Position numbers: made by a program. A stretch of DNA of 64,000 nucleotides from NCBI RefSeq assembly GCF_046105845.1, contig NZ_CP151004.1; one strand, 5' to 3'. Below are positions 6,023 through 9,000 of this stretch, piece by piece (the first letter of the stretch is position 1; each line of letters begins with the position of its first letter). Source of the DNA: Escherichia coli. Its GTDB lineage: Bacteria > Pseudomonadota > Gammaproteobacteria > Enterobacterales > Enterobacteriaceae.

Positions 6023-9000
6023 TAATGGCGTTAACAATGCGAGCGTGCCTGATGCGCTACGCTTATCAGGCCTACGAGACTCCTGCAATATATTGAATTT
6101 GCATGATTTTGTAGGCCGGATCAGACGTTAACGCCGCATCCGGCAAGAAGCTATAAGAAAAGGGCGGAGATCATCTTCGCCCTTTTTATTTCTGCAATCC
6201 GCAATTATCATCCCGCAGATCTATACTTTTTGGGTCAACACGTAACGCTTTACAGGTGATTATCATGGGGCTTTTTGATGAAGTTGTCGGTGCCTTTCTG
6301 AAAGGCGATGCGGGGAAATATCAGGCCATTTTGAGCTGGGTTGAGGAGCAGGGCGGCATTCAGGTGCTGCTGGAAAAACTGCAAAGTGGCGGTTTAGGTG
6401 CCATTCTCTCAACCTGGTTGAGTAATCAACAGGGTAACCAACCAGTTAGCGGCGAGCAACTGGAATCAGCGCTCGGCACAAATGCGGTGTCCGATCTCGG
6501 GCAAAAACTGGGCGTGGATACCAGTACAGCTTCCAGTTTACTGGCAGAACAATTGCCGAAGATTATTGATGCACTCTCACCGCAAGGTGAAGTGTCACCA
6601 CAAGCCAATAACGATCTGCTTTCCGCAGGCATGGAACTGCTGAAAGGGAAACTCTTCCGCTAAGCAAAAGGGGAGCACGCAACGCGCGTTGCATCCCCCT
6701 TTTCCCTCGGGTGTTGTACTGATTTTTGAGCGGAATCGCGTTAGCATGGGTCAGGAACCAATCTACCTGGGGAACTCATGGCTATCAAACTCATTGCTAT
6801 CGATATGGATGGCACCCTTCTGCTGCCCGATCACACCATTTCACCCGCCGTTAAAAATGCGATTGCCGCAGCTCGCGCCCGTGGCGTGAATGTTGTGCTG
6901 ACGACGGGTCGCCCTTATGCAGGCGTTCACAACTACCTGAAAGAGCTGCATATGGAACAGCCGGGCGACTACTGCATTACTTACAACGGTGCGCTGGTGC
7001 AGAAGGCCGCTGATGGTAGCACCGTGGCGCAAACCGCTCTCAGCTATGACGACTACCGTTTCCTGGAAAAACTCTCCCGCGAAGTCGGTTCTCATTTCCA
7101 CGCGCTGGACCGCACCACGCTGTACACCGCCAATCGTGATATCAGCTACTACACGGTGCATGAATCTTTCGTTGCCACCATTCCGCTGGTGTTCTGCGAA
7201 GCGGAGAAAATGGACCCCAATACCCAGTTCCTGAAAGTGATGATGATTGATGAACCTGCCATCCTCGACCAGGCCATCGCGCGTATTCCGCAGGAAGTGA
7301 AAGAAAAATACACCGTGCTGAAAAGTGCGCCGTACTTCCTCGAAATCCTCGATAAACGCGTTAACAAAGGTACGGGTGTGAAATCACTGGCCGACGTGTT
7401 AGGTATTCAACCGGAAGAAATCATGGCGATTGGCGATCAGGAAAACGACATCGCAATGATTGAATATGCAGGCGTCGGTGTGGCGATGGATAACGCTATT
7501 CCTTCGGTTAAAGAAGTGGCGAACTTTGTCACCAAATCCAACCTTGAAGATGGCGTGGCATTTGCTATTGAGAAGTATGTGCTGAATTAATCAGTGAACG
7601 GGCAAACGGCATGAATGCGTTTGCCCGCAGCGATTAACAATTTCTGGTCGTGCATAAAATCAGGAACTGGAGTGGTGACGTTACTATATCCAGCGTAAGA
7701 GTGACTGGCAGCAGCGCATTAACGAGGCCGCGCGGGACGCCATCTGTTGCTTTATACTCATAAAATCCCACCGTAAAGGGTTGATGGAAAACCATCACGT
7801 TTGAGTAATCCGCTTTTTTATTTTTCTGGTGGATTGAGCCTTTCAAACCGTCCAGCATCCATGTACAACGCCGGGTATCACAAATAAAACCATATTGTGT
7901 TGCCAGTGCCTTATCTTCTTCGTTGTTCCAGTCGTAATAGAGCGTAATAGCACCAGAGAAATTCTTATTACTGCTGCTTAAAATAAATTTCGCGTTATCA
8001 GAAACGGTGATTCTTTCACCATGAATTGCCGGATCGTTCAGCATTTTAACCACCTCATCGCCGCCGGTGGTCAACAGATAGTCCAACGATTCCCCAACAA
8101 AAACATAGCCTTTCGTACCGTTACTATCTTCTGCCAGCGATAAACCCTTAATCGTGTCTGACCGCCATTGCTCGGCATGTGGAGGGCTTGCGGTATTAAA
8201 AACCAGTCCTGCGGTGATACATCCGGTCAACGCAAATGCCAAAGAACACAAACTGGCAGCCTTAAAAAATCCCTTAAAATTCAACTTCATGATTAATCCT
8301 TTAAACGAGTAGCTAAGCCGTTGAAAGCATACTCTTCTTTCCCTCCTGTTTAGCGTCTGACATCCCTTTTCAGATTTCTGCCCGACGCATGTCATTTTTT
8401 TATGCATTGTTCTTTTTGTGATCTAAATTGTAGTACAACAATATAAATTTGTACTACATTACACGCACAGCAAACGCGAACGTCATCACGCTGGTACTAC
8501 AAAGTTGCCGCGTTATGCATCGATCGGGGTAAAGTAGAGAAGAACATACAGAGCACAAGGACTCTCCATGACTCTCAATAAAACCGATCGCATTGTCATT
8601 ACGCTGGGTAAACAGATCGTTCACGGCAAATACGTACCAGGCTCTCCACTTCCGGCTGAGGCGGAGCTCTGTGAAGAGTTTGCAACCTCGCGCAACATCA
8701 TCCGTGAGGTGTTCCGTTCGCTGATGGCGAAGCGGCTGATTGAAATGAAACGTTATCGCGGCGCGTTTGTGGCACCGCGTAACCAGTGGAATTACCTCGA
8801 CACTGACGTACTGCAATGGGTGCTGGAAAACGACTACGACCCACGGCTTATCAGTGCCATGAGCGAAGTGCGAAACCTGGTGGAACCGGCGATTGCCCGT
8901 TGGGCGGCAGAACGCGCGACTTCCAGCGATCTGGCGCAGATTGAATCGGCGCTGAACGAGATGATTGCCAACAATCAGGACCGCGAAGCGTTTAACGAAG

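What the first reader, a model, noticed from the sequence alone, without database searches (positions are those of the whole stretch)
8428..8501. Three DgoR operator half-sites ahead of dgoR
TTGTAGTACAA and TTTGTACTACA form a perfect inverted repeat about 10 bp apart, and a third GTACTACA half-site lies about 35 bp downstream. The arrangement fits autoregulation of the dgo operon by its GntR-type repressor; the third site may allow cooperative binding or looping.
Basis: partly seen in the sequence, partly recalled or inferred. Interest (0 to 1): 0.3.

Follow-up and report, generated by a model that had tools for sequence, protein, structure and literature searches.

The report
Known DgoR operators upstream of dgoR
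These are the binding sites that let the E. coli repressor DgoR switch off its own D-galactonate operon: two are experimentally proven, the third was predicted by comparative genomics in 2015 and is still untested, so the finding is real but ordinary.

Summary
The window is the E. coli chromosome from dnaA onward. Bases 8428-8501 lie in the yidX-dgoR intergenic region, upstream of dgoRKADT.

**Observation: confirmed.** Three 11-bp motifs matching TTGTA-N-TACAA are present:
- S1, 8428-8438, perfect.
- S2, 8449-8459, one mismatch.
- S3, 8492-8502, one mismatch.

They are the only such matches in 64 kb.

**Interpretation: partly right.**
- These are not half-sites. Each 11-mer is itself a palindrome, a full operator for one DgoR dimer.
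- S3 is absent from the experimental two-repeat model. It is already listed as a predicted DgoR site in the supplement of Suvorova et al. 2015.

**New here, from 79 Enterobacterales species:**
- S3 is a conserved island (0.90 column conservation against 0.53 for the spacer upstream of it).
- It sits 43 ±1 bp after S2, on the same helix face.
- It starts 38 bp before a conserved TAAAGT that fits the downstream RNA polymerase site seen by Sort-Seq.
- It is never a perfect match in any of 74 species.

**Best reading of S3:** a weak auxiliary operator, about +30 from the inducible start and abutting the basal promoter. Its function is inferred, not shown. Sort-Seq reported no repressor signal there.

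Novelty: already known. Interest: low.

The parts
8414..8435 (+). CRP site (class II) of the inducible dgo promoter. Left half TGTGA is at 8417-8421 and the weak right half overlaps S1. It contains GATC at 8420-8423.
   Evidence: Belliveau 2018 reports TGTGA at -160 to -140 from the ATG with class II activation. Columns 8414-8424 are 0.96 conserved over 79 species. TGTGA lies 11 bp before S1 in 70 of 78 species.
8428..8438 (.). S1, the published IR1: TTGTAGTACAA, a perfect palindromic DgoR operator that overlaps the inferred -35 of the inducible promoter.
   Evidence: Sequence and pattern match. The IR1 oligonucleotide in PMC11705089 is identical. S1 is perfect in 70 of 78 species and its columns are 0.99 conserved.
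8449..8459 (.). S2, the published IR2: TTGTACTACAT, one mismatch. It overlaps the -10 hexamer TACATT.
   Evidence: Sequence and pattern match. Described as 'IR2 has one mismatch'. It lies 21 bp after S1 in 78 of the 79 species scanned, and its columns are 0.95 conserved.
8455..8460 (+). -10 hexamer TACATT of the D-galactonate-inducible, CRP-dependent promoter P1. The inferred transcription start is about 8466-8467.
   Evidence: Belliveau 2018 names the wild-type -10 as TACATT within -120 to -100. The start site is my inference from the -10 position and from the CRP centre at 8424.5 being -41.5.
8492..8502 (.). S3: TGGTACTACAA, a predicted third DgoR operator with one mismatch at position 2. 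Its centre is about +30/+31 from the inferred P1 start and -71 from the ATG.
   Evidence: Pattern match. Listed as a DgoR_ECO site, CACGCTGGTACTACAAAGTTG, in the Suvorova 2015 S1 File. Present with up to 2 mismatches in 74 of 78 species, 43 ±1 bp after S2. Columns are 0.90 conserved against 0.53 for 8460-8486. Binding has not been shown.
8505..8510 (+). Possible weak -35 (TTGCCG) of a downstream basal promoter P2. It starts 2 bp after S3 ends.
   Evidence: T8506, G8507, G8509 and G8510 are conserved, with G8507 in 79 of 79 species. It lies inside the Sort-Seq 'RNAP site -70 to -30'. The assignment is inferred, and the 19-bp spacer is atypical.
8528..8537 (+). Conserved block GGTAAAGTAG that contains the likely -10 (TAAAGT, 8530-8535) of the basal promoter P2.
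   Evidence: Columns are 0.93 conserved. The distance from the S3 start to TAAAGT is 38 bp in 70 of 71 species. It falls at -38 to -33, inside the Sort-Seq RNAP site. The -10 assignment is inferred.
8557..8561 (+). Shine-Dalgarno AAGGA of dgoR.
   Evidence: Sequence. Conserved columns 8556-8563.
8568..9257 (+). dgoR, a GntR/FadR-family repressor of 229 aa.
   Evidence: Pfam GntR at 2.9e-14 and FCD at 3.6e-27. PDB 7c7e at E=1.3e-148. RefSeq annotation.
9254..13290 (+). dgoK, dgoA, dgoD and dgoT, the structural genes controlled from this region.
   Evidence: Pfam DGOK, KDPG aldolase, MR_MLE and MFS_1. RefSeq annotation.

Best explanation
This is the control region of the E. coli dgoRKADT operon.

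**Shown by others.** S1 (IR1) and S2 (IR2) are each a full palindromic operator for one DgoR dimer. They cover the -35 and -10 of the CRP-dependent promoter P1 and the right half of its CRP site. DgoR bound there blocks RNA polymerase and CRP. D-galactonate releases DgoR, which induces the operon and dgoR itself.

**Inferred here.** S3 is a third, deliberately weak DgoR operator.
- It lies on the same helix face as S1 and S2, at 64 and 43 bp centre to centre.
- It sits about +30 from the P1 start and ends 2 bp before the presumed -35 of a weak basal promoter P2.
- The most likely role is to let DgoR damp P2, setting its own basal level, and/or to add a little to P1 repression by in-phase cooperative binding or as a roadblock.
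For: **Identity of the locus**
- The intergenic region is a 100% match to E. coli chromosomes at the same coordinates, with dgoR, dgoK, dgoA, dgoD and dgoT annotated.
- Protein domains agree, and PDB 7c7e matches at 1.3e-148.

**S1 and S2**
- The published IR1 sequence is identical, and the IR1/IR2 model is stated.
- The Sort-Seq repressor shift at -140 to -110, which is 8428-8458, is lost in a dgoR deletion strain and in galactonate. DgoR was pulled down on -145 to -110. The -10 TACATT and the CRP TGTGA were mapped in the same study.

**S3**
- Only three motif matches occur in 64 kb.
- Suvorova et al. 2015 list three DgoR sites for E. coli and seven other enterobacteria.
- S3 is present in 74 of 78 species at 43 bp (67), 42 bp (5) or 44 bp (2) after S2.
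- Conservation is 0.90, against 0.53 for 8460-8486 upstream and 0.70 for 8503-8527 downstream.
- S3 is invariant in four divergent E. coli whose spacers carry SNPs.
- The same 11-mer, TGGTACTACAA, is listed as one of the two DgoR sites of Pectobacterium and of Sodalis, and it is the second site in the Affinibrenneria locus.
- There is no consensus RNA structure and no Rfam hit that could explain the conservation otherwise.

**Weakness of S3**
- No species among 74 has a perfect S3, while S1 is perfect in 70 of 78. Positions 2 and 8 are anticorrelated.

**Link to P2**
- The distance from S3 to TAAAGT is 38 bp in 70 of 71 species.
- The Sort-Seq RNAP site at -70 to -30 covers this region.
Against: - Sort-Seq, at base-pair resolution across the intergenic region, described a repressor signature only at -140 to -110 and none at -76 to -66. 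Reg-Seq treats the promoter as fully mapped.
- Every accessible experimental paper models two inverted repeats and uses a 55-nt probe without S3.
- DgoR is reported as a dimer, so looping would need higher-order contacts that have not been shown.
- In about two thirds of species, S3 has lost the A of the GT-N3-AC core (position 8), which may prevent binding.
- The P2 -35 is poor and its spacer would be 19 bp. The consensus promoter scan found nothing there.
- The rigid S3-to-TAAAGT spacing could simply reflect promoter-spacer constraint.
- I could not read the primary 2019 paper (Singh et al., J Bacteriol), which may have tested this site.
Confidence: 0.85

Rival explanations
1. S3 is an auxiliary operator whose main job is to tighten repression of the inducible promoter P1. 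It would do this by cooperative, in-phase binding with S1/S2 (a short loop or a protein-protein bridge) or by blocking elongation at about +30. The model is the two-operator arrangement proposed for the FadR-subfamily repressor LldR.
For: - Centre-to-centre distances are 21, 43 and 64 bp, which is 2.0, 4.1 and 6.1 helical turns.
- The S2-S3 spacing is held to ±1 bp across 74 species, although the intervening sequence is only 0.53 conserved.
- S3 is weak, as expected of a site that depends on cooperativity.
- For LldR, repression is described as depending on looping between two operators in the same angular orientation (PMC8689689).
Against: - Sort-Seq in glucose reported no positive expression shift at -76 to -66. 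That shift would be expected if S3 contributed much to P1 repression.
- DgoR is described as a dimer.
- A 43-bp loop is energetically costly.
Confidence: 0.3
2. S3 is a positive element for the basal promoter P2. DgoR bound about 45 bp upstream of the P2 start would help RNA polymerase at a promoter with a poor -35, as FadR does at fabA. This would sustain DgoR synthesis while P1 is shut.
For: - The S3-to-TAAAGT distance is fixed at 38 bp in 70 of 71 species.
- The -35 region is poor: position 8505 is variable and the spacer would be 19 bp.
- The Sort-Seq RNAP (loss-of-expression) region is said to extend to -70, which overlaps the right half of S3.
- FadR activation of fabA from a site near -40 is established knowledge, recalled from memory and not checked here.
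Against: - No report describes DgoR as an activator.
- A dgoR deletion gives strong constitutive expression.
- The fixed spacing is also explained by S3 abutting the promoter.
- In about two thirds of species S3 lacks a core base.
Confidence: 0.1
3. S3 does not bind DgoR in vivo. Its conservation reflects something else, such as part of the P2 promoter (an UP-like or upstream -35 element), another factor's site, or a relic of an ancestral operator.
For: - There is no experimental signal for DgoR at S3 in the accessible literature.
- Position 8 of the core varies among A, G and T.
- The flanking bases CACG at 8487-8490 and TGnGG at 8506-8510 are also conserved, so the island is wider than the DgoR motif.
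- S3 has decayed in Affinibrenneria and Limnobaculum while GGTAA is kept.
Against: - Both halves of the palindrome are conserved symmetrically: T, G, T, A on the left and T, C, A, A on the right, each in at least 72 of 79 species. That is the signature of a dimeric wHTH site, not of a -35 element.
- The motif is that of the cognate regulator encoded immediately downstream.
- A match with up to 1 mismatch by chance in this region is about 0.003.
- No RNA explanation was found.
Confidence: 0.25

Closest known systems
E. coli dgo cis-acting element, IR1 and IR2 (Singh et al. 2019; Belliveau et al. 2018; Arya et al. 2021; PMC11705089; PMC12288454)
   Same: S1 and S2 are these elements. The published IR1 oligonucleotide is base-for-base identical to window 8423-8444. 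IR2 carries the described single mismatch. The position is -140 to -110 from the ATG, overlapping the -10 TACATT and a class II CRP site.
   Different: Nothing differs for S1 and S2. This strain has a few spacer SNPs relative to K-12, for example A for G at 8446. The published model has two repeats and does not include S3.
Predicted DgoR regulon sites in Suvorova, Korostelev & Gelfand 2015 (PLoS One, S1 File, FadR sheet)
   Same: The file lists exactly these three sites for E. coli b4479, including CACGCTGGTACTACAAAGTTG, which is S3. It lists three sites each in E. fergusonii, Shigella, Salmonella, Klebsiella, Enterobacter 638, Cronobacter and Serratia.
   Different: That table gives sequences only. 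The spacing, the position relative to the two promoters, the wider sampling of 79 species, and the observation that S3 is never perfect were worked out here.
LldR O1/O2 at lldPRD (FadR subfamily), with lac O1/O2/O3 and gal OE/OI as general models of auxiliary operators
   Same: A repressor of the same subfamily has a primary operator and a second operator in the early transcribed region. Repression is proposed to depend on in-phase operators and looping. The LldR O2 position of +22 to +38 is recalled from memory.
   Different: DgoR has two adjacent primary operators directly on the core promoter, plus S3 only 43 bp away. LldR operators flank the promoter at a longer distance. No looping or tetramer evidence exists for DgoR.
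FadR at fabA (activation from about -40) and at fadBA/fadL (repression)
   Same: Same protein fold, and the same TNGT-N3-ACNA type of palindrome read by a dimer. This shows that operator position decides the sign of regulation. This is established knowledge, and the FadR-DNA structure 1HW2 was used to model DgoR.
   Different: DgoR is known only as a repressor. An activating role for S3 at P2 is speculation.

Membership tests
DgoR operator (GntR/FadR-subfamily palindrome) | An 11-bp palindrome with a TKGT-N3-ACMA core, where GT and AC are 3 nt apart | tested here: met
   S1 TTGTA-G-TACAA, S2 TTGTA-C-TACAT and S3 TGGTA-C-TACAA all have GT-N3-AC. The family consensus and the 3-nt spacing for DgoR are given in PMC4494728.
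DgoR operator (GntR/FadR-subfamily palindrome) | Lies upstream of the cognate regulator gene and the dgo catabolic operon | tested here: met
   The sites are 66-140 bp upstream of dgoR. The operon is dgoRKADT.
DgoR operator (GntR/FadR-subfamily palindrome) | Conserved at the orthologous position in related genomes, above the background of the flanks | tested here: met
   Column conservation is S1 0.99, S2 0.95 and S3 0.90, against spacers at 0.53-0.59. S3 is present in 74 of 78 species.
DgoR operator (GntR/FadR-subfamily palindrome) | Bound by purified DgoR and released by D-galactonate | not testable with these tools
   Published for the IR1+IR2 region, by EMSA with a 55-nt probe and by DNA-affinity mass spectrometry on -145 to -110. 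No accessible data exist for S3.
DgoR operator (GntR/FadR-subfamily palindrome) | Mutation of the site derepresses the promoter in a DgoR-dependent way | not testable with these tools
   Sort-Seq shows this for -140 to -110 only. Nothing was reported at -76 to -66, which counts mildly against S3.
   Each 11-mer is its own reverse complement apart from the central base, plus one mismatch in S2 and one in S3. The published model places one dimer per repeat.
Looping or cooperative auxiliary operator (lac, gal, LldR type) | Operators are separated by an integral number of helical turns, and the spacing is conserved | tested here: met
   Distances are 21, 43 and 64 bp. S2-S3 is 43 bp in 67 species, 42 in 5 and 44 in 2.
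Looping or cooperative auxiliary operator (lac, gal, LldR type) | The repressor can bridge two operators, as a tetramer or through dimer-dimer contact | not testable with these tools
   The literature describes DgoR as a dimer. A Hill coefficient is fitted to the EMSA data, but its value is not given in the text I could read.
Looping or cooperative auxiliary operator (lac, gal, LldR type) | Loss of the auxiliary site weakens repression | not tested
   This needs reporter mutagenesis. Sort-Seq reported no such signal.

The most novel reading that the evidence does not exclude
S3 is a set-point operator kept sub-optimal by selection. DgoR made from a weak basal promoter (P2, with TAAAGT as its -10) would shut that promoter through S3 only once DgoR concentration is high enough to keep the stronger S1/S2 sites on the inducible promoter saturated. 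This would separate repressor homeostasis from induction.

The hint is that no species among 74 has a perfect S3. The lineages that restored the A at position 8 all carry a purine at position 2.
Probability: 0.25. Interest if true: 0.35.

Novelty: already known. Interest (0 to 1): 0.15.

Why it matters
The dgo operon is a model for sugar-acid regulation by GntR/FadR repressors. dgoR is also repeatedly mutated when E. coli adapts to the gut, so its control region is of practical interest.

The finding itself adds nothing new. Two sites are textbook for this system and the third was predicted in 2015.

The small useful point is that current experimental models and probes leave out a third site that is conserved across Enterobacteriaceae, phase-locked to the other two and adjacent to a second promoter. 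Testing it would be cheap and might refine the quantitative model of this promoter.

Tried and rejected
1. **RNA-level explanation for S3 conservation.** RNAalifold on the 5' UTR (8467-8570) of 74 species gave no consensus structure. The energy was 0.0, the same as column shuffles. Rfam gave only a meaningless E=0.68 hit. A 5-bp stem with a 1-nt loop cannot form in any case.
2. **Consensus sigma-70 and terminator scan of 8200-8650.** It found nothing in the operator region. Promoter positions therefore rest on Sort-Seq and on conservation.
3. **A sigma-54 reading of TGGTAC...TTGCC across S3.** Rejected by eye. The GG-to-GC spacing is 2 bp too long, and the GG is absent in most species, which have TTGTAC.
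4. **The 13-nt direct repeat TTATGCATTGTTC / TTATGCATCGATC.** It has two copies at 85% identity and is not conserved, so I treated it as chance.
5. **Reading the primary paper (Singh et al. 2019), Arya et al. 2021 and the 2024 review.** None is held. I cannot say whether the third site was tested there.
6. **The 'upstream site' and 'right site' of DgoR in Reg-Seq.** The text does not say whether 'right' means IR2 or S3. I assumed IR1/IR2, because Sort-Seq describes one repressive region only.
7. **Searches for genomic SELEX or ChIP data on DgoR.** They gave nothing specific.
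Full report
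**Where we are.** Bases 8291-8567 match E. coli chromosomes at 100% identity, in several cases at the same coordinates counted from dnaA. RefSeq annotation of one such genome gives this gene order: gyrB, yidB, yidA, a yidX-like gene on the minus strand (7634-8290), then dgoR (8568-9257), dgoK, dgoA, dgoD, dgoT, and cbrA on the minus strand. Pfam confirms the assignments: GntR and FCD domains for DgoR, DGOK, KDPG aldolase, MR_MLE and MFS_1. DgoR matches PDB 7c7e at E=1.3e-148. The finding therefore lies in the yidX-dgoR intergenic region, 66-140 bp upstream of the dgoR start codon.

- TTGTAGTACAA is at 8428-8438, TTTGTACTACA at 8448-8458 and GTACTACA at 8494-8501.
- The repeat finder reports 10-nt arms that are 100% complementary and 10 nt apart, and an exact 8-nt direct repeat whose second copy begins 35 nt after the first ends.
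- TTGTASTACAA with up to one mismatch occurs three times in the 64-kb window, at 8428, 8449 and 8492. Shuffles give 0.62 per window, or about 0.003 for a 277-bp region.

**What the motifs are.** Each 11-mer is its own reverse complement around the central base:
- S1, TTGTA-G-TACAA.
- S2, TTGTA-C-TACAT.
- S3, TGGTA-C-TACAA.

This is the FadR-subfamily operator type, with TKGT/ACMA boxes and GT and AC 3 nt apart. DgoR is named among the regulators with that spacing (PMC4494728). Each motif is therefore a full operator for one dimer, not a half-site. The inverted repeat between S1 and S2 follows trivially from two palindromes sitting side by side.

**What is already published.**
- The IR1 oligonucleotide used to model DgoR on DNA, CTAAATTGTAGTACAACAATAT, is identical to window 8423-8444. 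The same group describes IR1 as perfect and IR2 as carrying one mismatch. Both overlap the dgo promoter, with two DgoR dimers bound and released by D-galactonate (PMC11705089 and PMC12288454).
- Independently, Sort-Seq found a repressor signature at -140 to -110 from the ATG, which is 8428-8458. It disappears in a dgoR deletion strain and in galactonate. DgoR was pulled down on -145 to -110.
- The same study mapped a -10 of TACATT (8455-8460), a class II CRP site with TGTGA (8417-8421), and a separate RNA polymerase site at -70 to -30, which is 8498-8538 (PMC6003448).
- From the -10 and the CRP centre (8424.5) I infer a P1 start near 8466-8467. That puts S1 at about -34, S2 at about -13 and S3 at about +30.

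**The third site in the literature.**
- It is absent from the experimental two-repeat model. The 55-nt EMSA probe cannot reach it.
- It is not new, however. The supplement of Suvorova, Korostelev and Gelfand 2015 lists three DgoR sites for E. coli b4479, the third being CACGCTGGTACTACAAAGTTG. It lists three each for E. fergusonii, Shigella, Salmonella, Klebsiella, Enterobacter 638, Cronobacter and Serratia, and two each for Pectobacterium and Sodalis.
- I could not read the primary 2019 paper, so I do not know whether it tested this site.

**Comparative test done here.** I fetched dgoR loci from 80 species of Enterobacterales, scanned the upstream regions and aligned 79 of them.

Column conservation, as the fraction of sequences carrying the majority base:

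| Region | Coordinates | Conservation |
|---|---|---|
| CRP left half | 8414-8424 | 0.96 |
| S1 | 8428-8438 | 0.99 |
| S1-S2 spacer | 8439-8448 | 0.59 |
| S2 | 8449-8459 | 0.95 |
| Spacer | 8460-8486 | 0.53 |
| S3 | 8492-8502 | 0.90 (0.95 without the centre and position 8) |
| Downstream of S3 | 8503-8527 | 0.70 |
| GGTAAAGTAG block | 8528-8537 | 0.93 |
| Before the Shine-Dalgarno | 8538-8555 | 0.56 |

- S3 is recognisable with up to 2 mismatches in 74 of 78 species. It lies 43 bp after S2 in 67 species, 42 bp in 5 and 44 bp in 2.
- Centre-to-centre distances of 21, 43 and 64 bp put all three sites on one face of the helix.
- Four divergent E. coli have identical S1, S2 and S3 while their spacers carry SNPs.
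- An RNA explanation fails. There is no consensus structure in the 5' UTR over 74 species and no Rfam match.
- S3 therefore behaves as a selected, dyad-symmetric protein site carrying the motif of the regulator encoded next to it.

**Two further details.**
- S3 is never perfect. No species among 74 has T at position 2 together with A at position 8. There are 17 with a purine at position 2 and A at position 8, 55 with T at position 2 and G or T at position 8, and 2 with both mismatches. S1, by contrast, is perfect in 70 of 78 species. Shared ancestry inflates these counts, so this is a hint of tuning toward weak affinity, not proof.
- The distance from the S3 start to a conserved TAAAGT (8530-8535) is 38 bp in 70 of 71 species. 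TAAAGT sits at -38 to -33, inside the Sort-Seq downstream RNA polymerase site. A conserved TG-GG at 8506-8510, with G8507 in 79 of 79 species, could be a poor -35 with a 19-bp spacer. S3 thus ends 2 bp before the presumed -35 of a basal promoter, P2.

**Mechanism.**
- Shown by others: DgoR dimers on S1 and S2 occlude the -35 and -10 of P1 and the CRP site, and galactonate releases them.
- Inferred here: S3 is a weak auxiliary operator. I favour a role in damping P2, which would be negative autoregulation setting the basal repressor level, possibly with a small contribution to P1 repression.
- Rivals: S3 mainly supports P1 repression by in-phase cooperativity or as a roadblock, as proposed for LldR. 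S3 activates P2 in the manner of FadR at fabA. Or S3 does not bind DgoR at all.
- Against any strong role: Sort-Seq reported no repressor signal at -76 to -66, DgoR is described as a dimer, and most species lack the core A at position 8.

**Verdict.** The region is already known, and the third site is a published prediction. Interest is low. The one loose end is an inexpensive experimental test of S3.

Noticed in passing
window 8427-13176 (compare L085:2561-2760 and L086): About 404 of 5,424 E. coli complete genomes cover less than 80% of the yidX-dgoR intergenic query. Two examples that I fetched carry the same deletion of about 4.75 kb, joining 8426 to 13177. It removes all three operators, dgoR, dgoK, dgoA, dgoD and all but the last 114 nt of dgoT. 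The left edge sits at the CRP/S1 boundary. I did not determine which lineages carry it.
   Followed up: partly
window 8528-8537: GGTAAAGTAG is 0.93 conserved over 79 species. It is kept even in Hafnia and Affinibrenneria, and as GGTAA in Limnobaculum, where S3 has decayed. That is more conservation, including the flanking G's, than a plain -10 hexamer usually shows. It fits the Sort-Seq downstream RNA polymerase site, but the matching -35 is poor and the spacer would be 19 bp.
   Followed up: partly
window 8420-8423: A GATC lies inside the left half of the CRP site, 4 bp before S1, and TGTGATC is conserved across Enterobacteriaceae. The GATC upstream of Salmonella dgoR, placed within the putative CRP site, is reported as hemimethylated and linked to ON/OFF heterogeneity of dgoR expression (PMC7708049; also noted in bioRxiv 10.64898/2026.01.27.702048).
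   Followed up: partly
window 8493 and 8499 (positions 2 and 8 of S3): The two variable positions of S3 are anticorrelated across species. A at position 8 occurs only with G or A at position 2, and T at position 2 only with G or T at position 8. A perfect site is never seen (0 of 74). Phylogenetic non-independence was not corrected for.
   Followed up: partly
window 8487-8491 and 8503-8510: The conserved island around S3 is wider than the 11-mer. CA at 8487-8488 and T at 8491 are conserved upstream. Downstream, A at 8503 and TG-GG at 8506-8510 are conserved, with G8507 invariant in 79 of 79 species. This could be an extended DgoR footprint, promoter elements or another factor's site.
   Followed up: no
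Shigella flexneri SF3769 upstream region (table in PMC4494728 S1 File): The S1 equivalent in S. flexneri is listed as TTGTAGCGCAA, with two substitutions in the right half that include the core A. This suggests a weakened primary operator in that lineage.
   Followed up: no
L053 (CACSKA010000004.1, labelled Chryseobacterium sp. 18061): A contig labelled Chryseobacterium encodes a DgoR 90% identical to the E. coli protein and has the enterobacterial operator layout. The assembly is probably mislabelled or contaminated. Its S3 is also degraded, at 3 mismatches.
   Followed up: no
window 8400-8412 and 8513-8525: A 13-nt direct repeat, TTATGCATTGTTC / TTATGCATCGATC, at 85% identity, flanks the operator cluster 113 bp apart. 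It is not conserved in other genera and is probably chance.
   Followed up: no
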